NCBI RefSeq assembly: GCF_000621645.1
Contig: NZ_JHXR01000023.1
Coordinates: forward strand, 20,491-52,490
Length of the DNA stretch: 32,000 nucleotides
Reading direction: 5' to 3'
Source: Vibrio cholerae ATCC 14035
GTDB taxonomy: Bacteria; Pseudomonadota; Gammaproteobacteria; Enterobacterales; Vibrionaceae
Shown here: positions 478-26,782 of the stretch, piece by piece
Numbering within the stretch: the stretch's first letter is position 1
How the letters are laid out: every line of letters begins with the position of its first letter
Notes under the pieces: generated by a model
The model's database searches: none
The model's input: only the letters and a program-made list of their open reading frames with translations
Told to the model about the DNA's origin: nothing
Translations under genes and position numbers: made by a program

Positions 478-1428
478 CTAAACCACTTTATTGCGAAGTA
501 ACAGCGAGAGGAAATAGATCCCGCCGATAAAATTGATCACCACACTCAAGGTGGTCCCGAAATGAAACACTTTTTCGATGATCCACTGGCCTGACAATAG
601 TGCGCACACCGACATCGCCGACGTGGCAAGCAGCAAGGTGGAGTGACGATAAGAGCGGAACCATTCGCGAGTCAGGTTTGTCACCAGCAGCCCAAAAAAC
701 AGAATGGGCCCGACCAGAGCGGTGGAAATCGAAATCAGCAGCGCGCTGATCAGCAAGACATTACGCGTCACTTTGTGTACATCGACACCTAAACTCACCG
801 CGTTATCTTTATCTAACCAGAACACATCGAGCACACGATGCTGACGGAACAGCAGCACGCAAGCCAATAGCAGCAGAGGCGACACCACATACACCAACTT
901 GGTGTTGACGTTATTAAAGCTGGCGAACATGTTAGCCTGCACCGAAGCAAAATCGTTCGGATCCATCAACATCACAAAGAAAGAGGCGATGCTGGAAAAA
1001 AGCTGGCCTAAAATCACCCCAAGCAGTAACAGCACAATCAAGTTGCGATGCCCACTTCGGAAATAAAAAGTAAACAGCAGCGTCGAGAAGCTGAGCATCG
1101 CCGCCACCGACAGTGAAAAATTCCAGTACACGTTCATCGCAATACTGCTCATGCCCCCAAACAGCACCACGACCAACACTTGGGTGAACATGTATAAAGC
1201 ATCAAACCCCATAATACTCGGCGTTAAAATACGGTTATGGGTGATGGTTTGAAACGCCAACGACGACTGCGCAATCGCAATGCCAGCAAAGACCATAGCC
1301 AACACTTTCGGCACACGACGCGATAAAAAATACTGGTAGTTGTCCGCATTGAGCCCGACGCCAATAAACAGCGCCGCAAACAGCAGAGAAATCGCGATCA
1401 GCAGCAGTAATTTCGTTCTATCCTGCAT
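478..1428 (-). CDS. vctG: FecCD/BtuC-type siderophore ABC permease
   Basis: 316-aa ORF that is hydrophobic throughout and shows the typical FecCD-family permease pattern. Its ATG overlaps the vctD stop by 11 nt. It is followed immediately by the ATPase gene. Confidence 0.9.
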   Translation of the reverse strand: MQDRTKLLLLIAISLLFAALFIGVGLNADNYQYFLSRRVPKVLAMVFAGIAIAQSSLAFQTITHNRILTPSIMGFDALYMFTQVLVVVLFGGMSSIAMNVYWNFSLSVAAMLSFSTLLFTFYFRSGHRNLIVLLLLGVILGQLFSSIASFFVMLMDPNDFASVQANMFASFNNVNTKLVYVVSPLLLLACVLLFRQHRVLDVFWLDKDNAVSLGVDVHKVTRNVLLISALLISISTALVGPILFFGLLVTNLTREWFRSYRHSTLLLATSAMSVCALLSGQWIIEKVFHFGTTLSVVINFIGGIYFLSLLLRNKVV

Positions 1429-2356
1429 GACGCTGCCCTCGCAAAATCAAGGCAATAAACACCGAACCACCTAAAATACTGATGATCATAGAGATGGGGA
1501 CTTCATACGGGAAGATGATGACGCGCCCCACTAAATCACATAACAACACGAACATCGCCCCGAAAATGGCAGTGCGCGGAATATTTTTACGCAAATTATC
1601 GCCGTAATAGAGGCTGACTAGATTAGGCACAATCAAACCCAAGAAAGGCAGTTGACCGACAATCATGACCACGGTCGCCGACATGATGGAGACTAAGGCC
1701 ACACCGATGATCATGACCTGTTGATAATTCAAACCCAGATTGGTCGCAAAATCTTTTCCCATCCCCACGGCAGAAATGCGTGCGGCGTACAAATAGCTGA
1801 AAATAGCCACTGGGATTGCGATATAGAGCAGTTCAAAATCCCCTTTAAGCAGGTTGGCAAAATTGGCAACAGCCCAACCGGAAAGATTTTGGATAGCATC
1901 ATATTTGTAGGCAATAAAGGTCGCCAAAGAGTCAATCACATTGCCAAAAATGATGCCGATCAGCGGCACGAAAATGACGTTTTTAAACTGAATGCGCTGA
2001 ATGAAAAACACAAAGACCAGCGTACCCAACATGGAGACGCCGAAAATCAACCAGAGGTTTTGACCATGGCCAAACAGAACTAGGCTAAGCACGTAACCGA
2101 GCATGGCACACTCAATCGTGCCGGAAGTCGATGGTGAGGCAAATCGGTTTTGACTCACTTGCTGCATGATAAGACCCGCGATGCTTAAACCCGCACCGGA
2201 GAGCAAAATCGCTAATAATCGGGGGACTCGGCTAGTCAGCAGTAACTGCCAAGCTGACTCATCACCTTGAAACAAGGCTGCGAGGGATAAATTGCCCACG
2301 CCAACAAACAGGGAACAAAAACTAATAACAACTAAAACAAGCAATAACTTTTTCAA
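1418..2356 (-). CDS. vctD: FecCD/BtuC-type siderophore ABC permease
   Basis: 312-aa polytopic membrane ORF. The TTG start at 2356 has GAGG about 9 nt upstream. It is the second gene of the binding protein-permease-permease-ATPase operon. Confidence 0.9.
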   Translation of the reverse strand: MKKLLLVLVVISFCSLFVGVGNLSLAALFQGDESAWQLLLTSRVPRLLAILLSGAGLSIAGLIMQQVSQNRFASPSTSGTIECAMLGYVLSLVLFGHGQNLWLIFGVSMLGTLVFVFFIQRIQFKNVIFVPLIGIIFGNVIDSLATFIAYKYDAIQNLSGWAVANFANLLKGDFELLYIAIPVAIFSYLYAARISAVGMGKDFATNLGLNYQQVMIIGVALVSIMSATVVMIVGQLPFLGLIVPNLVSLYYGDNLRKNIPRTAIFGAMFVLLCDLVGRVIIFPYEVPISMIISILGGSVFIALILRGQRHAG

Positions 2357-2408
2357 AGTAAACCTCAGCCTGTCAGCAAGAGGAGAGTTCCCCCTCCTCC
2401 GTGCTTAT

Positions 2409-3320
2409 TTACTGCATACCAACTGACGCTTTCATGTCGGCAACCATCTGCTCTGTCGCTTTCACGCCAGAGATAGCGATGTACCAAGCATTCACATCGA
2501 GATAAGCAATATGGCCGTTTTTGTAAGCTGTGGTGGCTTTAACCAGATCATTTTCAAAGGTTTGGCGAATATTGGTTTCACCTTTAGTCACCACTTTATC
2601 TCGGTCAACCACCAGCAAGGTTTTCGGATTGTGTTCACGGATGTACTCAAATGAGATCAGATCACCATGGCTGCTCTCTTTGCTGACTGGCACGGTTTCA
2701 CTAAATCCAAAATCTTTGTACACCGAAGAGAAGCGTGAATTGGCACCAAAAGTCGTCAGGTTGCCGCCAGAGCTCATGACCAACATCGCATCACTTTTAT
2801 GTTGTTGGTTGTATTGCATGATGGATTTAAATTGCGCGTCAACTTGCTCAATTTTGGCTTCGACCGCAGGCTCAATCGCAAACACTTTGCCTAGGTTACG
2901 CCACTGCTGTTGAGTGCTTTCCCAATAACCTTGGTCAGCTTCAGCAGCAAAAACGATGGTCGGTGCAATTTTTGATAGCTCGTCGTAGCTTTTCGATGCA
3001 CGCGGCCCAATCACAATCAGATCCGGTTTTTGGGTATAAATCGTTTCAAAATCTGGCTCAAACAACGAACCTGCACTTGGATACTTATCACTCTTGTATT
3101 TGGCAAGATAGTCAGGAGTACCATCAAATTTGGAAACGGCAACCGGCTCAATACCGAAACTGTCGATAGCGTCCAGAGCCCCCACACCAATAACCACTAC
3201 ACGTTGCGGTTTCTGCTCAAGGGTGGTTTTACCCAAGCGATGTTCAATCGTTACTGTCTCTGCTTGTGCAGCAAACGCAGCCAATAATCCTAATGCAGCC
3301 CAATGAATACGAGATTTCAT
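2409..3320 (-). CDS. vctP: Periplasmic catechol-siderophore binding protein
   Basis: The ORF track extends to 3410. The internal ATG at 3320 is preceded by GGAAGGA and gives the signal peptide MKSRIHWAALGLLAAFAAQA/ETV. The body looks like a class-III (CeuE/FatB-like) binding protein. It is the first gene of the operon. Confidence 0.9.
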   Translation of the reverse strand: MKSRIHWAALGLLAAFAAQAETVTIEHRLGKTTLEQKPQRVVVIGVGALDAIDSFGIEPVAVSKFDGTPDYLAKYKSDKYPSAGSLFEPDFETIYTQKPDLIVIGPRASKSYDELSKIAPTIVFAAEADQGYWESTQQQWRNLGKVFAIEPAVEAKIEQVDAQFKSIMQYNQQHKSDAMLVMSSGGNLTTFGANSRFSSVYKDFGFSETVPVSKESSHGDLISFEYIREHNPKTLLVVDRDKVVTKGETNIRQTFENDLVKATTAYKNGHIAYLDVNAWYIAISGVKATEQMVADMKASVGMQ

Positions 3321-3365
3321 ATGTTCCTTCCGAAAGTGGTTGAGATAAGCAAGTGGAATCATTTT

Positions 3366-3384
3366 GATACTTATTCTCATTAAG
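3366..3384 (-). promoter_or_regulatory. Fur box upstream of vctP
   Basis: The minus strand reads CTTAATGAGAATAAGTATC, matching 14 of 19 positions of the Fur consensus GATAATGATAATCATTATC. It lies 46-64 nt upstream of the vctP ATG. vctPDGC is known to be iron/Fur regulated. Confidence 0.65.
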
Positions 3385-3527
3385 AGAGTGCGTACTATAA
3401 TCAAAACCAACTTGGCAATGCAACTGTGTGAGGGAAGATATCGTTGAACAATTTAGAAATGCACAAACCCTCGCCAATTCTTATCAATAGCAAGGGTCTA
3501 CAAGATTCATTTAATGAATTTGATTCA

Positions 3528-21777: not shown

Positions 21778-22752
21778 TTATTCATCGATAGGTGTCCAAT
21801 CTTTCGGCGGCGTTAACCCCCAGCGCGCAAACTCTTCTGGCTGATAAACACCTCTCCCTTGGCGGTTAATTTGGATCGGAATATATTTGGCAAGCTCTTG
21901 CTTATCCAAAATACGCGTCACCAGCTCAGCAGCCATCTCTCCTTGTTCTAACCCAAATAACACCACGCCACCCGCCGCTTTTCCTTTGCCGATCGAGAAA
22001 TCCCAAAAGCCAAACAGCGGCAGTTGAGAATGCTCATTCGTCCAACTCACAATATTTTCAGGAGCAGCATGTAACCCATCAATATTGACAAGGGTTTGAT
22101 ACAAACCCACCACTATGGCTCCAAAGCCTTCTTGATTCGCGTACTCAACCGCGTGTTTCCACTCTTGTTCGCTCTTAATAGAACGGATGTCCGCCTCTAT
22201 CCCCAAATTCTCCTTAATCAGCTTGTGTTGATCTTGCATATAATCCAAGGCAATTTTTGAGGTATTCCCTGAGTCAAACAACACCAAAACACGCCGTTTT
22301 TCTTTCGGTAACAAGCGGCCAATTTCAGCCATATTTTTTACAAACAAGGGTTGCTCTAAGATGCCCGTTACCTGCGCAATCCCCGAATACTCATCCAGCA
22401 ACTCTCTGGGATTTGAGTTGATGCCGAGAAAAACAATCGAGATGGGTTCGTTATACAGTTTGGGTAACAAATAATAGAGTGCGTTGTCATCGCCCAATAC
22501 CACCAAATCAGGTTTCAATTGCTGATAAGCTTGAAATGCACGATCGGCAGCCACGCTGTATTCTCGAGCGGGAATCCGTTTCGTATCCATTTCAAAAAAG
22601 TGTAATTGATGTTGGGCGTTAATCCCCTCTTTCAATCCTTTTGTGTAGGCTGCATCCCACGCGTAACCCGAGTGATAACTTTGAATCACCAACACATTGG
22701 CAGCCCATGCTTGGCCACTCAATAACCACACTATAACCATCCACCAGCGCAT
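21778..22752 (-). CDS. Periplasmic solute-binding-like protein (orphan ABC substrate-binding fold, no cognate permease or ATPase nearby)
   Basis: The ATG at 22752 is preceded by GGAGGAAG and gives the signal peptide MRWWMVIVWLLSGQAWA/ANV. The ORF-track N-terminal extension is translated ERIC repeat. The alternating beta-alpha pattern (VLVIQSY.., VVLGDDNA.., IVFLGIN.., VLVLFDSGN..) is typical of type-I periplasmic binding proteins. Confidence 0.8.
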   Translation of the reverse strand: MRWWMVIVWLLSGQAWAANVLVIQSYHSGYAWDAAYTKGLKEGINAQHQLHFFEMDTKRIPAREYSVAADRAFQAYQQLKPDLVVLGDDNALYYLLPKLYNEPISIVFLGINSNPRELLDEYSGIAQVTGILEQPLFVKNMAEIGRLLPKEKRRVLVLFDSGNTSKIALDYMQDQHKLIKENLGIEADIRSIKSEQEWKHAVEYANQEGFGAIVVGLYQTLVNIDGLHAAPENIVSWTNEHSQLPLFGFWDFSIGKGKAAGGVVLFGLEQGEMAAELVTRILDKQELAKYIPIQINRQGRGVYQPEEFARWGLTPPKDWTPIDE

Positions 22753-22772
22753 ATGGCTTCCTCCACGCTTTA

Positions 22773-22897
22773 ATACCCAAACCACTTGGGGTGGCAGATG
22801 CCACTGTGAGCTCATTCCCTTGAGCATAGAGAAACTATGCCTCTGAGATCAAAAACGTAGCCAACATCGCCGTTACTTCAAGCAGAAAGGGTATAGG
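22773..22897. repeat. Full-length ERIC/IRU repeat abutting the binding-protein gene RBS
   Basis: ATACCCAAACCACTTGGGGTGGCAGATGCCACTGTGAGC + ATTCCCTTGAGCATAGAGAAACTATG...ACGTAGCCAACATCGCCGTTACTTCAAGCAGAAAGGGTATAGG aligns with both arms of the copies at 3528-3725 and 14862-14989. It starts 21 nt upstream of the ATG at 22752. Confidence 0.85.
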
Positions 22898-23001
22898 CAA
22901 GTGTAGCTGATGTTTCTGCCTATAACTTGGCCAAGTGGGAAGGAAGGTACGGCATAGACCATCTATACTGAAATGAATTACTTCTAAAACAATAGATAAT
23001 A

Positions 23002-24948
23002 ATGAAAAACCGTGACGCAGAAGAAATGGACAGTAACCCGATGTTCAGCCGTATTGGCCGACGCATCATTCTCATCATGGTGATACTCAGTGGTGCCGTG
23101 ACTTTAGCCATGACGATTACCCAAACCTTCATCGACTACAACCGTGAGTTCAATAATGTCCAAGCTAGGCATGATGAAATCCAAACCATTCACGCCGAGC
23201 TTCTCGCCAGCTCACTGTGGAATTATGACTTAGTCGTGCTTACCCAAAGGCTGGAAGGCTTGGTCAACTTACCCAATGTCGATTATATGAAGATCACCTC
23301 TGGCGACTACCATTTCTCAGCCGGAGAACCCGTAACCAGCATGGCATTAAATAGCGAAATAGCACTGGAATACACCAACCCAGATACTCAGGTGACTGAG
23401 AATATCGGCACCTTATATGTCGAATCGGACGCCCAAGGTATTTATAACTATCTGATTCGCCAGTTTCTGCTCACCTTAGCCGTCAATGCGCTGAAAACCG
23501 CCATTGTGTGCTATTTAATCTTGCTGATTTTCCACGCCAGTGTGAATCAGCGGATTTTTGCGATTGCGCAATTTCTACGTCGCTACAATCCCCGCCACCC
23601 TAAAAAACCACTACAACTGCCTTATAACCCTTGGATTATGGAGAAAAATGATGAGTTACAATGGCTGGGAGATGAAACTAATCGGATTGCTAACAACGTA
23701 ACAACCCTTTACCGCACCATCAAATCGGAGCAAGAACGGTTGGAAGATTTTGCACAAGCCGCCTCCGATTGGTTATGGGAAACCAACTGCCATGGCGAGC
23801 TGATTTATAGCTCAGAAGCCATGTCTACTGCGTTAGCGATTGAGGAAGATTCCAAACCACTCATAGTAAGTATTGCTCCGCTTCAATCCTCAACCGCGCT
23901 CATGAACTGCTTACTCAAACAGCAAGATTTCTCAAATTGTGAAGTGGAATTGACACTCAGTGATGGCACTCAAGCCTATTTACTGTTTCAAGGCATTGCT
24001 CGCTATGCCGATGAGCAATTTCTCGGATTTCGTGGTACTGCAATCAACATTACCTCGCTCAAACTGGCTCAATTGAGTTTAGAAATCATGAACCAAGATC
24101 TGGAGCAGCAAGTCGCGAATCGAACGCAAGATTTAGCACTCAGTTTAACTCGTTTGCAAGAAACCCAAACCCAACTGATTGAATCTGAAAAGCTCGCCGC
24201 TCTCGGTGGCTTAGTGGCAGGCGTCGCACACGAAGTGAATACGCCGTTAGGTATTGCGGTGACAGCCACTTCTGTGATTCAGGAAACACGAGAAAGCTTG
24301 CTCAACGCCTTTAATCAGCAAACCCTCACCAGCCAACAGTTTGCAGAATTGATGGAGAGGATGACTCAAAGCACCCTGATGCTAGAAACCAATCTTAACC
24401 GTGCCGCACGACTGGTTCGAGATTTTAAGCAGACCGCCGTCGACCAAGTTTCGGAAAGCCGTAGCCAATTTCACGTAAAACAAGTCCTCGACGCGCTGAT
24501 GGCCAGCTTACACAGTGAAACCCGAAAAATTCCGGTGACTCCGCAACTGCATGGGGAGGATTCTGTGATGATGAACAGCTTACCTGGTGTACTGACACAG
24601 ATTATGACTAACTTGGTCATGAACAGTGTGAATCACGCTTTCGCAGAGACTGCTCAGCCAGAGATTGATATCCACTTCTATCAAAAAGATCAGCAGATCA
24701 TGATTGAATATCGAGACAATGGATGCGGCGTAGCAAAAGAACTGCATCAAAAAATCTTTGAACCATTTTTTACCACTAAGCGAGGTCAAGGTGGCTCAGG
24801 ATTAGGATTAAATCTGGTGTTTAATTTGGTTAAGCAAAAGCTGCATGGCCAACTGGCGTTTTCTTCCGAACCGGGGCACGGCGTGCATTACGTGATCACA
24901 TTACCCCAAGCGCTATCGATGCCTCAAGTAGCCGACTGTGCGACCTAG
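23002..24948 (+). CDS. Membrane sensor histidine kinase (periplasmic loop, PAS, HisKA, HATPase)
   Basis: 648-aa ORF. TM1 is IILIMVILSGAVTLAMTITQTF and TM2 is LLTLAVNALKTAIVCYLILLIF, flanking a loop of about 110 aa. It has a PAS-like segment (WLWETNCHGELIY..FRGTAINIT), H-box VAGVAHEVNTPLG, N-box NLVMNSVNHA, G1 DNGCGV, F-box FEPFFTTK and G2 GGSGLGLN. There is no receiver domain. Start-codon choice is uncertain (23002, 23026 or 23041). Confidence 0.9.
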   Translation: MKNRDAEEMDSNPMFSRIGRRIILIMVILSGAVTLAMTITQTFIDYNREFNNVQARHDEIQTIHAELLASSLWNYDLVVLTQRLEGLVNLPNVDYMKITSGDYHFSAGEPVTSMALNSEIALEYTNPDTQVTENIGTLYVESDAQGIYNYLIRQFLLTLAVNALKTAIVCYLILLIFHASVNQRIFAIAQFLRRYNPRHPKKPLQLPYNPWIMEKNDELQWLGDETNRIANNVTTLYRTIKSEQERLEDFAQAASDWLWETNCHGELIYSSEAMSTALAIEEDSKPLIVSIAPLQSSTALMNCLLKQQDFSNCEVELTLSDGTQAYLLFQGIARYADEQFLGFRGTAINITSLKLAQLSLEIMNQDLEQQVANRTQDLALSLTRLQETQTQLIESEKLAALGGLVAGVAHEVNTPLGIAVTATSVIQETRESLLNAFNQQTLTSQQFAELMERMTQSTLMLETNLNRAARLVRDFKQTAVDQVSESRSQFHVKQVLDALMASLHSETRKIPVTPQLHGEDSVMMNSLPGVLTQIMTNLVMNSVNHAFAETAQPEIDIHFYQKDQQIMIEYRDNGCGVAKELHQKIFEPFFTTKRGQGGSGLGLNLVFNLVKQKLHGQLAFSSEPGHGVHYVITLPQALSMPQVADCAT

Positions 24949-25005
24949 CCACGCCTAGCGCTCCATCGGTATTCATTTCTGCCGGTATTCACTTTTGTCG
25001 CTGTC

Positions 25006-26547
25006 CTAGTCAGGCAGCGAAGCACGGATAGCAATAAACTCATCCCAGTGTTCGAGTAATAGCTCAACCAGTTTCGGCTCAAAGTGACGCCCTTTTTGCG
25101 CCATTAACTCTTCTCGGATCTGTTCATCTGTCCACGGATCTTTATAAGAACGTTTCGCGCCTAAAGCATCAAAGACATCGGCTATCGCAGTAATACGGCC
25201 TGAAATGGGAATATCATCGCCTTGTAAGCGGTTCGGATAACCACTGCCATCCCATTTTTCATGATGAGTGGCGGCAATTTCTTTCGCCACTTGCATTAAT
25301 CGCCGTTTAGAACGGTTAAGGATTTCGACCCCATACTCCACATGCTTTTGCATGATCGCCCATTCTTGGGCATCAAGTTTACCAGGCTTATGCAAGATAC
25401 TGTCTGGAATGGCGACTTTGCCAACATCATGCAAAGGTGAGGCATTTTTGATCATGTCAGCCTCAGATTCAGCTAAACCGTATAAATGGGCTAATCGCTC
25501 ACAATACAAGGCAACACGTTGTACATGTGCGCCGGTTTCTCGGCTACGTGCTTCCACGGCATTGGCTAAGTTGTATACCAACTCTTTCGACGTCTCACGC
25601 AAGTCCACCATCAAGTTAATGTTTTCAAAGGTAAGACCGATGTTGTACATGTAGATCTCAAGCAATTTTCTATCCAGTTCAGAAAGCTCCTGCTCAAAAC
25701 CTACATACAGAACGCTATCAACACCTCGTTCATCTTGTTTAAAGAACACGTAAGCATCGCCGTAGTCGCGAGTCGTGCGCTGACTCAACACTTCTTTGCA
25801 ACGACGCTGCACGTCTTCCGGTAAACCTTTAAAGGGAGATTCAACGTATAACTCAACCCGTTCAGCAGTTGTTGCCACGGTTAAAGCGTTACATTTTTCA
25901 CTATCGGGACAAGGTGTCGCCACGCAATAAAAAGCTGAAGCGTGCAATTTCAGCAATGAAGTCAATTGGTTCAAAACCGCAGTAGCGTAAGACTGGAGAC
26001 TTTTCGTATTTTGAACATTCGCAGAGGCTTCAATCACATGACTTAAACCGAGCTTCTGATCTTCAATCAAGCACAAATCTCGGTAAGCACGCAGCATAGA
26101 ATAGAGCAAGGTGCGCAGTTTTTGAGTCGTCAACTCTGTTTTTTCTTTGTAATCATCAATCTCATACTCTTTGATGACCCTATCTTCAGGAGCCTGCCCT
26201 GCTTGTCCGGTGCGCAGCACTAAACGCACTTGACGGTTCTGGAGTTCTTCGCGGATGTAACGCACCAAGTCTAAGCCCGCGTGTTCGGTTTCCATCACTA
26301 CATCAACCAGCGCCAGTGCGATATCCGAGCGCTCCGCCATCACTTTTCGCGCTTCTAGGCCAGAAAGAACCGAAATTAATTCAAGGGGACGATTTTGAAA
26401 CTTGAACCCCGTCAATGCTAAACGTGTGATTTGGTGCATCTGCTCATCATCATCGACTAACAACACACACCAAGGCTCTTGGCTATGCATGACTACCCGT
26501 TCTTTTTCCCCTGCGGCCTCTTGGCGCATATCTGCAAACAGATCCAT
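25006..26547 (-). CDS. Response regulator with REC, central accessory domain and HD-GYP phosphodiesterase domain
   Basis: The ATG at 26547 is preceded by GGAG 7 nt upstream (the ORF track starts at a TTG 9 codons earlier). REC is VLLVDDDEQ...ALVDVVM. A middle domain of about 160 aa has no motif I can name. The HD-GYP domain has HDVGK and HHEKWDGSGYP. By synteny this is probably the locus I recall as VCA0210. Confidence 0.9.
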   Translation of the reverse strand: MDLFADMRQEAAGEKERVVMHSQEPWCVLLVDDDEQMHQITRLALTGFKFQNRPLELISVLSGLEARKVMAERSDIALALVDVVMETEHAGLDLVRYIREELQNRQVRLVLRTGQAGQAPEDRVIKEYEIDDYKEKTELTTQKLRTLLYSMLRAYRDLCLIEDQKLGLSHVIEASANVQNTKSLQSYATAVLNQLTSLLKLHASAFYCVATPCPDSEKCNALTVATTAERVELYVESPFKGLPEDVQRRCKEVLSQRTTRDYGDAYVFFKQDERGVDSVLYVGFEQELSELDRKLLEIYMYNIGLTFENINLMVDLRETSKELVYNLANAVEARSRETGAHVQRVALYCERLAHLYGLAESEADMIKNASPLHDVGKVAIPDSILHKPGKLDAQEWAIMQKHVEYGVEILNRSKRRLMQVAKEIAATHHEKWDGSGYPNRLQGDDIPISGRITAIADVFDALGAKRSYKDPWTDEQIREELMAQKGRHFEPKLVELLLEHWDEFIAIRASLPD

Positions 26548-26782
26548 GCCATCTCCATATTTAAACCACTTCAACCTTCTTTAGGTTTAGCACAATAGCT
26601 TGAAGTCCGAGAGGTATGGGCACTATTTTCAATGATAAATTCGTGAATATGTGTGTGGCTGGGCCATCATAAAATCATATTCAGCGCCTCATTCCACCGT
26701 TAATACGCGCGCAGTAGAGCTCGCGTCCTAGATTGAGCAGTTCGAGGTGCAGCAACATGAATGAAATAGCTACGATGGGGCA

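What the first reader, a model, noticed from the sequence alone, without database searches (positions are those of the whole stretch)
21778..26574. Orphan periplasmic binding protein, sensor kinase and REC-HD-GYP regulator: a candidate three-part cyclic-nucleotide signalling module
Three adjacent genes look functionally linked.
- A secreted type-I binding-protein-fold gene has no ABC permease or ATPase anywhere nearby.
- Divergent from it is a classical (non-hybrid) histidine kinase with a periplasmic loop of about 110 aa and a PAS domain.
- Convergent on the kinase is a response regulator whose output is an HD-GYP phosphodiesterase. About 160 aa of undefined domain lie between REC and HD-GYP.

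The arrangement resembles LuxP/LuxQ or TorT/TorS logic, where a binding protein presents ligand to the kinase. Here the output would be cyclic-dinucleotide hydrolysis.

If this is the locus I recall as VCA0210, its HD-GYP protein was reported to hydrolyse 3'3'-cGAMP as well as c-di-GMP. Neither the upstream kinase and binding protein nor the ligand has, to my knowledge, been connected to it. A periplasmic signal controlling degradation of the DncV/CBASS second messenger would be new biology.
Basis: inference. Interest (0 to 1): 0.72.

Follow-up and report, generated by a model that had tools for sequence, protein, structure and literature searches.

The report
Binding-protein, kinase, HD-GYP signalling trio
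Three neighbouring Vibrio cholerae genes (VCA0212, VCA0211, VCA0210) most likely form one pathway in which a periplasmic binding protein tells a membrane kinase when to switch on an enzyme that destroys cyclic-dinucleotide messengers; the enzyme and the kinase link are already published, but the binding-protein partner is not.

Summary
The three ORFs are exact matches to V. cholerae VC_A0212, VC_A0211 and VC_A0210 (V-cGAP2).

- **VC_A0212:** a secreted type-I binding protein, a divergent relative of PF04392.
- **VC_A0211:** a non-hybrid histidine kinase with a periplasmic CHASE5 domain.
- **VC_A0210:** REC, DUF3369 (GAF-like) and an intact HD-GYP.

No ABC genes lie within 10 kb. Pfam did not confirm the kinase's PAS domain.

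The linkage is well supported.
- In 50 Vibrionaceae loci the binding protein sits beside a CHASE5 kinase in 45, and the full trio is kept in 39.
- The window's own flanking genes recur in only 1-5 of those loci.
- In 66 non-Vibrio CHASE5 loci, 53-54 have an orphan SBP_bac_3-like gene immediately upstream. CHASE5 sensors therefore appear generally paired with a solute-binding protein.

The novelty claim is only partly right. A July 2026 paper already links VCA0211 to VCA0210 (H410A and D91A mutants) and names L-arginine as a cue. It calls the pair BaeS/BaeR, never mentions HD-GYP or VCA0212, and reports DNA binding by a protein with no DNA-binding domain.

The cGAMP/CBASS emphasis is weak, because the trio is spread across Vibrionaceae.

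Verdict: a new variant of LuxP/LuxQ-type sensing. Interest is moderate.

The parts
21778..22752 (-). VC_A0212: orphan periplasmic solute-binding protein, 324 aa from M26 (the ORF extends to 22827). A divergent PF04392-like type-I fold.
   Evidence: ORF. SD GGAGGA before M26. Exact match to VC_A0212. AF2 pLDDT 89.8. Foldseek best hits 3lft, 6hni, 3lkv, then LuxP. Profile against PDB: 3lkv E=3.5e-5.
22702..22752 (-). Signal peptide of VC_A0212 (MRWWMVIVWLLSGQAWA)
   Evidence: Hydrophobic N-terminus ending in AWA. The protein was detected among periplasmic proteins in culture supernatant (PMC12369372).
22753..23001 (.). Divergent intergenic region between the binding-protein and kinase genes (249 bp), presumed to hold both promoters
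   Evidence: Coordinates. The consensus scan found no sigma-70 match inside it.
23002..24948 (+). VC_A0211: non-hybrid sensor histidine kinase, 648 aa
   Evidence: H410 is the residue mutated in PMC13442452.
23134..23454 (+). CHASE5 periplasmic domain (aa 45-151), between TM1 (aa 22-40) and TM2 (aa 159-181)
   Evidence: Pfam E=2.6e-49. TM segments. AF2 model pLDDT 93.7 with an alpha2-beta4-alpha layout. Nearest PDB folds are the WalK/YycG and LapD-type periplasmic domains.
23602..24156 (+). Cytoplasmic linker with a possible HAMP-like helix and PAS-like region (aa 201-385); not confirmed
   Evidence: No Pfam PAS hit at E<=10. Weak profile hit to the VicK HAMP/PAS junction, E=0.014. About half of the CHASE5 kinases sampled carry Pfam PAS domains.
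24202..24909 (+). Kinase core: HisKA (24202-24381, H410 codon 24229-24231) and HATPase_c (24592-24909)
24949..25005 (.). 57-bp spacer between the convergent kinase and regulator genes, with a weak hairpin at 24965-24986
25006..26574 (-). VC_A0210 (V-cGAP2): response regulator with HD-GYP phosphodiesterase output. 522 aa from TTG, or 513 aa from the ATG at 26547.
   Evidence: Activity on c-di-GMP and 3'3'-cGAMP is from PMC4212101 and PMC4423081.
26137..26466 (-). REC domain (aa 37-146); phospho-acceptor D91 at codon 26302-26304
   Evidence: Pfam Response_reg E=1.9e-5, 25.2 bits, below the 30.2-bit gathering cutoff. Acidic pocket DDD and D91. D91A mutant in PMC13442452.
25606..26106 (-). DUF3369 (aa 157-323), a GAF-like middle domain
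   Evidence: Pfam E=9.7e-42. Described as GAF-like in bioRxiv 10.1101/2021.11.05.467447.
25069..25566 (-). HD-GYP catalytic domain (aa 337-502) with HDVGK (382) and HHEKWDGSGYP (437)
   Evidence: Pfam HD_5 E=3.8e-33. Motifs located.

Best explanation
VC_A0212, VC_A0211 and VC_A0210 form one three-part sensory pathway.

1. VC_A0212 is exported to the periplasm and binds a small solute in its inter-lobe cleft. The solute is probably an amino acid.
2. It does not feed an ABC transporter. It docks on the small sCache-like CHASE5 domain of the kinase VC_A0211 and changes the kinase/phosphatase balance across the membrane, as LuxP does with LuxQ and TorT with TorS.
3. VC_A0211 (H410) controls phosphorylation of D91 in the REC domain of VC_A0210.
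4. That signal passes through the GAF-like DUF3369 domain and sets the activity of the HD-GYP phosphodiesterase.
5. The phosphodiesterase lowers c-di-GMP and, in strains that make it, 3'3'-cGAMP.

Shown here: the domain content, secretion signal, fold, gene order, co-inheritance, and the general pairing of CHASE5 with solute-binding proteins.

From the literature: the PDE activities, and genetic dependence on H410 and D91.

Inferred: docking, the ligand, the sign of regulation, and phosphorylation control of the PDE.
For: **Identity and domains:**

**Co-inheritance in Vibrionaceae**
- Among 50 loci whose binding protein is at least 48% identical, 45 have a CHASE5 kinase next to it.
- 39 keep the whole trio in the window's arrangement.
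- The window's flanking genes (NhaC, MFS, GGDEF, NMNAT, NadE, DcuB) recur in only 1-5 of the 50. The trio therefore travels as a unit.

**The pair persists through rearrangement and duplication**
- It is found divergent, in tandem kinase-then-binding-protein order, and in tandem binding-protein-then-kinase order. Paralogous pairs occur in V. amylolyticus and V. kyushuensis.
- Salinivibrio has two CHASE5 kinases beside one binding protein. The second kinase is followed by another HD-GYP protein.

**Independent partner swap**
- In 66 distinct non-Vibrio CHASE5 loci, 53-54 have a co-directional ORF of about 250 aa, bearing a signal peptide, from one SBP_bac_3-like family. It lies -16 to about +60 bp upstream.
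- One locus has a Peripla_BP_4 protein instead.
- ABC_tran and BPD_transp are not among the 25 most frequent families shown for the 114 flanking ORFs, each of which has at least 2 members.

**Distant VC_A0212 homologues**
- They sit beside MCPs or small membrane proteins whose periplasmic domain is CHASE5-like (hhalign 79%, E=1.6e-5).

**Ligand-binding capacity**
- The invariant residues of the binding-protein family lie at or just after the C-terminal ends of the beta-strands of both lobes in the model. In type-I binding proteins that is where the ligand cleft lies, so ligand binding appears conserved.

**Weak co-evolution signal**
- Pairwise distances of the binding protein track those of the CHASE5 region best: r=0.88 against 0.79-0.84 for the other domains.

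**Literature**
- Loss of the L-arginine response in H410A and D91A mutants (PMC13442452).
- PDE activity.
Against: - No physical or genetic test of the VC_A0212-VC_A0211 interaction exists. I could not model the complex.
- CHASE5 has an sCache-like fold, a fold that in other sensors binds small ligands directly.
- 5 of the 50 Vibrionaceae binding-protein homologues lack an adjacent CHASE5 kinase. Many distant homologues sit beside unrelated genes such as FAD/FeS oxidases and helicases.
- The metagenome sample of CHASE5 loci was drawn with one subfamily motif, so the 80% pairing may not hold for all CHASE5 proteins.
- The REC match is below Pfam's gathering cutoff (25.2 against 30.2 bits).
- The only functional paper reports a transcriptional output through DNA binding, not PDE regulation.
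- McKee et al. saw PDE activity of over-expressed VCA0210 without any added signal.
Confidence: 0.62

Rival explanations
1. The kinase senses its ligand directly through the sCache-like CHASE5 domain. VC_A0212 is not a co-sensor. It would be a co-regulated or regulated neighbour, for example a scavenging protein whose expression shares the divergent promoter region.
For: The CHASE5 model is a small alpha/beta PDC-like domain, a fold class that often binds ligands directly. No interaction data exist.
Against: This does not explain why three unrelated solute-binding-protein families (PF04392-like, SBP_bac_3-like, Peripla_BP_4) each sit next to CHASE5 genes with no sign of transporter genes among the neighbours. 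It also does not explain why the pair is duplicated and rearranged as a unit.
Confidence: 0.15
2. VC_A0212 is a transport binding protein that serves an ABC importer encoded elsewhere in the genome. Its adjacency to the kinase reflects regulation of uptake or a dual role, as with ChvE or CBP.
For: Its closest solved relatives are ABC-transporter binding proteins for aromatic amino acids (PMC10443332). Databases name it an ABC substrate-binding protein. Dual-use binding proteins are known (PMC8050422).
Against: There are no permease or ATPase genes within 10 kb. None turned up among the neighbours examined at other loci. The protein is so diverged from PF04392 that Pfam does not score it. The only ABC genes in the window are FecCD-type with their own binding protein.
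Confidence: 0.1
3. As published in 2026, the pair is a 'BaeS/BaeR' transcriptional two-component system whose regulator binds the salX promoter directly. PDE activity would be secondary.
For: PMC13442452 reports EMSA, ChIP-qPCR, and H410A and D91A phenotypes.
Against: - VC_A0210 has no recognisable DNA-binding domain, only REC, DUF3369 and HD-GYP.
- The kinase scores 59 bits against the NCBIfam BaeS model, whose cutoff is 603. The regulator has no BaeR or OmpR-type output hit.
- The paper never mentions HD-GYP or c-di-GMP.
- The salX effects could be indirect, acting through c-di-GMP-responsive regulators.
Confidence: 0.08
4. The physiological role of the module is to control the DncV/CBASS messenger 3'3'-cGAMP rather than c-di-GMP.
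For: VCA0210 linearises 3'3'-cGAMP in vitro, and V-cGAP mutants affect DncV-linked phenotypes (PMC4423081). UniProt names it V-cGAP2.
Against: The trio is conserved in at least 39 Vibrio and Salinivibrio species. DncV is carried on VSP-type islands, reported only in V. cholerae strains and V. mimicus. The enzyme also hydrolyses c-di-GMP and changes motility and biofilm. I could not test for dncV in those genomes.
Confidence: 0.08

Closest known systems
LuxP/LuxQ (Vibrio AI-2 sensing) and TorT/TorS (TMAO sensing)
   Same: An orphan type-I periplasmic binding protein is encoded next to a membrane sensor kinase and presents ligand to its periplasmic domain. The VC_A0212 model aligns with LuxP in the LuxP-LuxQ complex (2hj9, E=2.4e-7).
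   Different: - The receptor domain is CHASE5 (about 110 aa, a single sCache-like module), not the LuxQ dCache-like domain or the TorS helical-bundle domain.
- The kinase is not hybrid.
- The binding protein is PF04392-like, a family absent from the 13 binding-protein families listed for such systems in PMC8050422.
- The output is an enzyme, not a phosphorelay to a transcription factor.
RpfC/RpfG and the 'RpfY' class of REC-DUF3369-HD-GYP regulators (e.g. DVU0722)
   Same: A two-component kinase controls a response regulator whose output is an HD-GYP c-di-GMP phosphodiesterase. VC_A0210 is the type example of the REC-DUF3369-HD-GYP architecture (bioRxiv 10.1101/2021.11.05.467447).
   Different: From my own knowledge, RpfC is a hybrid kinase that senses DSF without a binding protein. 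RpfG lacks DUF3369. No periplasmic binding-protein partner has been described for the class.
NspS/MbaA (V. cholerae) and ArtI/STM1987 (Salmonella)
   Same: A periplasmic solute-binding protein relays a polyamine or L-arginine signal to a membrane c-di-GMP enzyme (PMC8050422; PMC8846402).
   Different: In those systems the binding protein acts directly on a GGDEF/EAL protein with a dCache domain. Here a kinase and a phosphorylation step lie between the sensor and an HD-GYP enzyme.
PF04392 (ABC_sub_bind) binding proteins such as S. pneumoniae 3LFT, C. difficile CD0873 and V. cholerae 3LKV
   Same: They are the best fold and profile matches to VC_A0212. Many VC_A0212 homologues carry a precomputed PF04392 hit.
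   Different: Identity is only 13-17%. VC_A0212 itself is not scored by the Pfam model. The solved members bind L-Trp, L-Tyr or L-Phe (PMC10443332); from my own knowledge they are ABC-importer components. VC_A0212 has no transporter genes nearby.
E. coli BaeS/BaeR (the name given to VCA0211/VCA0210 in PMC13442452)
   Same: Both are a membrane histidine kinase plus a REC-containing partner.
   Different: From my own knowledge, BaeR is an OmpR-type DNA-binding regulator. VC_A0210 has no such domain. The NCBIfam BaeS model scores 59 against a cutoff of 603. The name is not supported by the sequence.

Membership tests
Solute-binding-protein-dependent sensor kinase (LuxPQ/TorTS type, defined by function) | The binding-protein gene is adjacent to the sensor gene and not to transporter genes | tested here: met
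   Divergent genes 249 bp apart. No ABC genes within 10 kb. Adjacency kept in 45 of 50 Vibrionaceae loci.
Solute-binding-protein-dependent sensor kinase (LuxPQ/TorTS type, defined by function) | The binding protein is exported to the periplasm | tested here: met
   Signal-peptide-like N-terminus. Listed among periplasmic proteins found in supernatant (PMC12369372).
Solute-binding-protein-dependent sensor kinase (LuxPQ/TorTS type, defined by function) | Physical binding of the binding protein to the sensor's periplasmic domain, and ligand-dependent change in kinase activity | not testable with these tools
No published interaction data were found.
LuxQ / TorS sensor families (by homology) | LuxQ-periplasm (PF09308) or TorS sensor domain in the kinase | tested here: not met
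   The periplasmic domain is CHASE5. NCBIfam LuxQ scores 67 against a cutoff of 1200, and TorS 70 against 676.
CHASE5-domain sensors (PF17149) | Pfam CHASE5 match above the gathering score, located between two transmembrane helices | tested here: met
   166 bits against a cutoff of 27. TM helices at aa 22-40 and 159-181.
PF04392 ABC_sub_bind | Match to the Pfam model above the gathering score | tested here: not met
   No PF04392 hit for VC_A0212 even at E<=10. Relatedness shows only through a profile (3lkv, E=3.5e-5), the fold, and precomputed hits on homologues.
PF04392 ABC_sub_bind | Encoded with its ABC permease and ATPase | tested here: not met
   and the neighbours at other loci.
HD-GYP phosphodiesterase response regulator (REC-DUF3369-HD-GYP, 'RpfY') | REC with a phospho-acceptor Asp, a DUF3369 domain, and intact HD and HHExxDGxGYP motifs | tested here: met
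   The REC score is 25.2 bits, below the 30.2 cutoff, but the acidic pocket and D91 are present.
HD-GYP phosphodiesterase response regulator (REC-DUF3369-HD-GYP, 'RpfY') | Hydrolysis of c-di-GMP, and of 3'3'-cGAMP for V-cGAP2 | not testable with these tools
   Taken from PMC4212101 and PMC4423081. The sequence is identical to the UniProt V-cGAP2 entry.
BaeS/BaeR | Kinase orthologous to BaeS, and a regulator with an OmpR-type winged-helix DNA-binding domain | tested here: not met
   NCBIfam BaeS scores 59 against a cutoff of 603. No DNA-binding domain in VC_A0210.

The most novel reading that the evidence does not exclude
CHASE5 is a dedicated docking domain for orphan periplasmic solute-binding proteins, across histidine kinases, chemoreceptors and cyclic-dinucleotide enzymes. 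Different lineages have plugged in unrelated binding-protein families: SBP_bac_3-like, Peripla_BP_4 and PF04392-like. In V. cholerae, VC_A0212 would be the missing receptor for the host amino-acid cue reported for VCA0211/VCA0210 (L-arginine). It would couple gut amino-acid sensing to degradation of c-di-GMP and 3'3'-cGAMP.
Probability: 0.3. Interest if true: 0.72.

Novelty: new variant of a known kind. Interest (0 to 1): 0.52.

Why it matters
- **An upstream input for VCA0210.** VCA0210 is one of the few V. cholerae enzymes shown to degrade both c-di-GMP and 3'3'-cGAMP, and nothing was known about what switches it on. Placing a ligand-binding protein and a kinase upstream gives a concrete, testable input.
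- **A way to re-read the 2026 study.** That study found an L-arginine response but no receptor, and it proposed DNA binding by a protein with no DNA-binding domain. The model here offers a receptor candidate and an alternative route through c-di-GMP.
- **A functional hypothesis for CHASE5.** CHASE5 is a widespread sensor domain with no assigned ligand. Most CHASE5 sensors sampled have an orphan solute-binding-protein gene beside them. This suggests the ligand should be sought on the partner protein rather than on the sensor. It would add a new receptor-domain family and a new binding-protein family to the short list of binding-protein-driven signalling systems.

Tried and rejected
- **Pfam and NCBIfam on VC_A0212:** only sub-threshold noise, plus a weak TrpX hit.
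- **Literature search for 'CHASE5':** only unrelated papers. A PF17149 hit in one preprint could not be found in its main text.
- **The search for homologous proteins with the kinase N-terminus (200 aa):** only 9 fragmentary hits, so a search was largely wasted.
- **The search for related loci with the diverse CHASE5 alignment A3:** A narrower subfamily alignment (A4) worked, but it biases the sample.
- **VC_A0212-family HMM against 80 non-Vibrio CHASE5 loci:** no hit at all. I therefore rejected the idea that CHASE5 is always paired with this particular binding-protein family. Looking at the upstream ORFs instead revealed the SBP_bac_3-like partners.
- **hmmsearch of a Vibrio CHASE5 HMM against MCPs next to distant binding-protein homologues:** marginal. 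Profile-profile comparison gave moderate support.
- **PAS domain in the kinase:** not confirmed.
- **Mirror-tree correlation:** in the expected direction but too weak to count.
- **Reading the interrupted hlyA as a biotype marker bearing on the cGAMP argument:** considered and dropped, because the indel pattern did not match what I recalled.

Full report
**1. What is in the sequence**

Exact-sequence look-up shows they are VC_A0212, VC_A0211 and VC_A0210 of Vibrio cholerae. UniProt lists VC_A0210 as 3'3'-cGAMP-specific phosphodiesterase 2, V-cGAP2. The window is therefore V. cholerae chromosome II. A 19-kb stretch is 99.95% identical to another V. cholerae genome.

*Binding protein (VC_A0212).*
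- The ORF starts 25 codons too early. M26 at 22752 has a GGAGGA ribosome-binding site and opens a typical signal peptide.
- The mature protein gives a confident AlphaFold model, pLDDT 89.8.
- Its best PDB matches are PF04392-type amino-acid binding proteins (3lft with L-Trp, CD0873, V. cholerae 3lkv), followed by LuxP in its complex with LuxQ.
- Pfam itself does not recognise the protein. A family profile reaches 3lkv at E=3.5e-5. It is a strongly diverged relative of that family.

*Kinase (VC_A0211).*
- It has two transmembrane helices that bracket a CHASE5 domain, E=2.6e-49.
- It has HisKA (H410) and HATPase_c, with no receiver or Hpt domain.
It is only hinted at by a weak profile match to VicK, E=0.014.

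*Regulator (VC_A0210).*
- The architecture is REC (D91), DUF3369, then HD-GYP with both catalytic motifs intact.
- DUF3369 has been described as GAF-like, and VCA0210 is the reference example of this architecture (bioRxiv 10.1101/2021.11.05.467447).

*Surroundings.*
- Within 10 kb there is no ABC permease or ATPase.
- The only ABC genes in the window are two FecCD permeases with their own class-III binding protein, 18 kb away.

**2. Are the three genes linked?**

I collected 80 genomic loci that encode relatives of the binding protein and probed them with each domain of the kinase and regulator.

- Among the 50 loci from Vibrio and Salinivibrio (binding protein at least 48% identical), 45 have a CHASE5 kinase next to the binding-protein gene.
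- 39 keep the complete trio in the window's arrangement: regulator convergent on the kinase, binding protein divergent from it.
- This is not background synteny. The window's other neighbours (NhaC, MFS, GGDEF, NMNAT, NadE, DcuB) are found within 10 kb in only 1-5 of the same 50 loci.
- The binding-protein and kinase pair also survives rearrangement and duplication. V. amylolyticus and V. kyushuensis carry the trio plus extra pairs in tandem orientation without a regulator.
- Salinivibrio has two CHASE5 kinases beside one binding protein. The second kinase is followed by a stand-alone HD-GYP protein.
- Pairwise divergence of the binding protein tracks the CHASE5 region slightly better (r=0.88) than any other domain (0.79-0.84). 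This is in the expected direction but weak.

**3. A broader pattern: CHASE5 sensors come with a binding protein**

An exhaustive search with the CHASE5 domain found 262 representative proteins. Of 69 full-length ones scanned, 59 are kinases, and a few carry GGDEF/EAL, HD-GYP or SpoIIE outputs.

I then fetched 80 non-Vibrio metagenomic CHASE5 loci.
- None encodes a VC_A0212 relative.
- Almost all have a co-directional ORF of about 250 aa, ending from -16 to about +60 bp before the CHASE5 gene.
- 41 of 61 scanned are Pfam SBP_bac_3.
- 53-54 of 66 distinct ones form a single homologous family, and they carry signal-peptide-like N-termini.
- One locus has a Peripla_BP_4 protein in that position.
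- Among 114 further flanking ORFs, ABC_tran and BPD_transp are not in the 25 most frequent families that the scan lists, all of which have at least 2 members.

Conversely, distant VC_A0212 relatives in Shewanella and Sedimenticola lie beside chemoreceptors or small membrane proteins. The periplasmic domains of these neighbours align with CHASE5 in a profile-profile comparison: 79% probability, E=1.6e-5, 102 columns.

Three unrelated binding-protein families have thus been recruited next to CHASE5-type domains, apparently without transporter genes. This is what one expects if CHASE5 works through a partner binding protein.

The CHASE5 model (pLDDT 93.7) is a compact two-helix, four-strand, one-helix module. 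It most resembles the extracellular domains of WalK/YycG and of a LapD orthologue, with weak E-values of 8e-4 to 2e-2. From my own knowledge, both of those domains act through protein partners. This is suggestive only.

The 2021 review of binding-protein-driven signalling lists no CHASE-type receptor domain, no PF04392 protein and no HD-GYP output.

*Caveat.* The metagenome sample was retrieved with one CHASE5 subfamily motif, so the frequency may not generalise.

**4. Likely mechanism**

1. Ligand-loaded (or ligand-free) VC_A0212 docks on CHASE5 of VC_A0211.
2. The kinase/phosphatase balance changes.
3. The phosphorylation state of D91 in VC_A0210 is passed through DUF3369 to the HD-GYP domain.
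4. This sets the rate of c-di-GMP hydrolysis, and of 3'3'-cGAMP hydrolysis where that messenger exists.

*Shown here:* architecture, export signal, folds, co-inheritance and the general partner pattern.

*From the literature:*
- PDE activity on both nucleotides (PMC4212101, PMC4423081).
- Dependence of an L-arginine response on H410 and D91 (PMC13442452).

*Inferred:* docking, the ligand, the sign of regulation, and control of catalysis by phosphorylation.

*The ligand is unknown.*
- The invariant residues of the family fall at or just after the C-terminal ends of the beta-strands of both lobes. In type-I binding proteins that is where the cleft lies, so a conserved ligand is likely.
- Solved PF04392 proteins bind aromatic amino acids (PMC10443332).
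- From my own knowledge, SBP_bac_3 proteins typically bind amino acids.
- The only reported cue is L-arginine.
- An amino acid is therefore the best guess.

**5. Prior art and conflicts**

PMC13442452 (July 2026) treats VCA0211/VCA0210 as a two-component pair and reports:
- induction during colonisation;
- H410A and D91A phenotypes;
- L-arginine as a cue, with the direct receptor explicitly unresolved.

That paper has problems.
- It names the pair BaeS/BaeR and reports direct binding of the regulator to the salX promoter.
- It never mentions HD-GYP, c-di-GMP or VCA0212.
- The sequence does not support the name. The BaeS model scores 59 bits against a cutoff of 603, and the regulator has no DNA-binding domain.
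- An indirect effect through c-di-GMP is a simpler reading, but it is untested.

VC_A0212 appears in the searched literature only as a periplasmic protein seen in a secretome.

**6. The cGAMP angle**

The trio is spread over dozens of Vibrionaceae species. DncV is carried on VSP-type islands, reported only in V. cholerae strains and V. mimicus (PMC4423081). c-di-GMP is therefore the more probable ancestral substrate, and cGAMP hydrolysis a shared chemical capability. I could not check dncV in those genomes.

**7. Verdict**

No mechanistic step has been tested.
- It is a new variant of a known kind: binding-protein-dependent two-component sensing with a new receptor domain, a new binding-protein family and an enzymatic output.
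- The regulator is already characterised, and the kinase link and a candidate cue are already published.
- The most useful new product is the CHASE5 and binding-protein pairing rule, together with the nomination of VC_A0212 as the missing receptor.

Noticed in passing
window 12361-14632 (-): The hemolysin gene hlyA is split into two overlapping ORFs: Hemolysin_N at 13841-14632, and Leukocidin plus lectin domains at 12361-13866. Compared with another V. cholerae genome (L081), the window has 6 extra bases (TGATCA) at 13838, which create an in-frame TGA, and 3 extra bases at 13102. In L081 too, the N-terminal reading frame runs into a stop shortly after that point.
   Followed up: partly
window 478-3410 (-): Two FecCD permease genes and a Peripla_BP_2 binding-protein gene form a siderophore-type ABC uptake cluster. 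It runs off the window start. These are the only ABC genes in the window and are unrelated to VC_A0212.
   Followed up: partly
window 16922-18001 (+): A GGDEF diguanylate cyclase gene lies 4 kb from the trio, on the binding-protein side. It is not co-conserved with the trio (2 of 50 loci).
   Followed up: partly
L017 4914-12598; L026 (Salinivibrio): Two tandem CHASE5 kinases share one VC_A0212-like binding protein. The second kinase is followed by a 330-aa stand-alone HD-GYP protein. The REC-DUF3369-HD-GYP regulator sits on the other side of the binding protein.
   Followed up: partly
L051-L054, L058, L061 (Sedimenticola); L056, L070 (Shewanella): Distant VC_A0212 homologues lie next to chemoreceptors. 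In Sedimenticola the order is: a 942-aa FAD/FeS oxidase, the binding protein, a 231-244-aa membrane protein with a CHASE5-like periplasmic domain, then an MCP. This may be a binding-protein-dependent chemotaxis input.
   Followed up: partly
L082-L161 (metagenomic CHASE5 loci): 53-54 of 66 distinct genes immediately upstream of CHASE5 sensors belong to one orphan SBP_bac_3-like family. One locus (L160) has a Peripla_BP_4 protein instead. ABC transporter families are absent from the 25 most frequent families listed for the flanking ORFs.
   Followed up: yes
L044, L046, L050 (V. kyushuensis, V. amylolyticus): Extra paralogous binding-protein and CHASE5-kinase pairs have no adjacent regulator, in genomes that also carry the full trio. 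Several sensors may feed one HD-GYP regulator.
   Followed up: partly
literature: PMC13442452: The 2026 paper names VCA0211/VCA0210 'BaeS/BaeR' and reports promoter binding. The regulator has no DNA-binding domain and is the known HD-GYP enzyme V-cGAP2, which the paper does not mention.
   Followed up: yes
window 26547-26574 (-): The regulator has two annotated starts in public records: TTG at 26574 (522 aa) and ATG at 26547 (513 aa). The ATG has the better ribosome-binding site (GGAG). The published residue number D91 uses the 522-aa form.
   Followed up: partly
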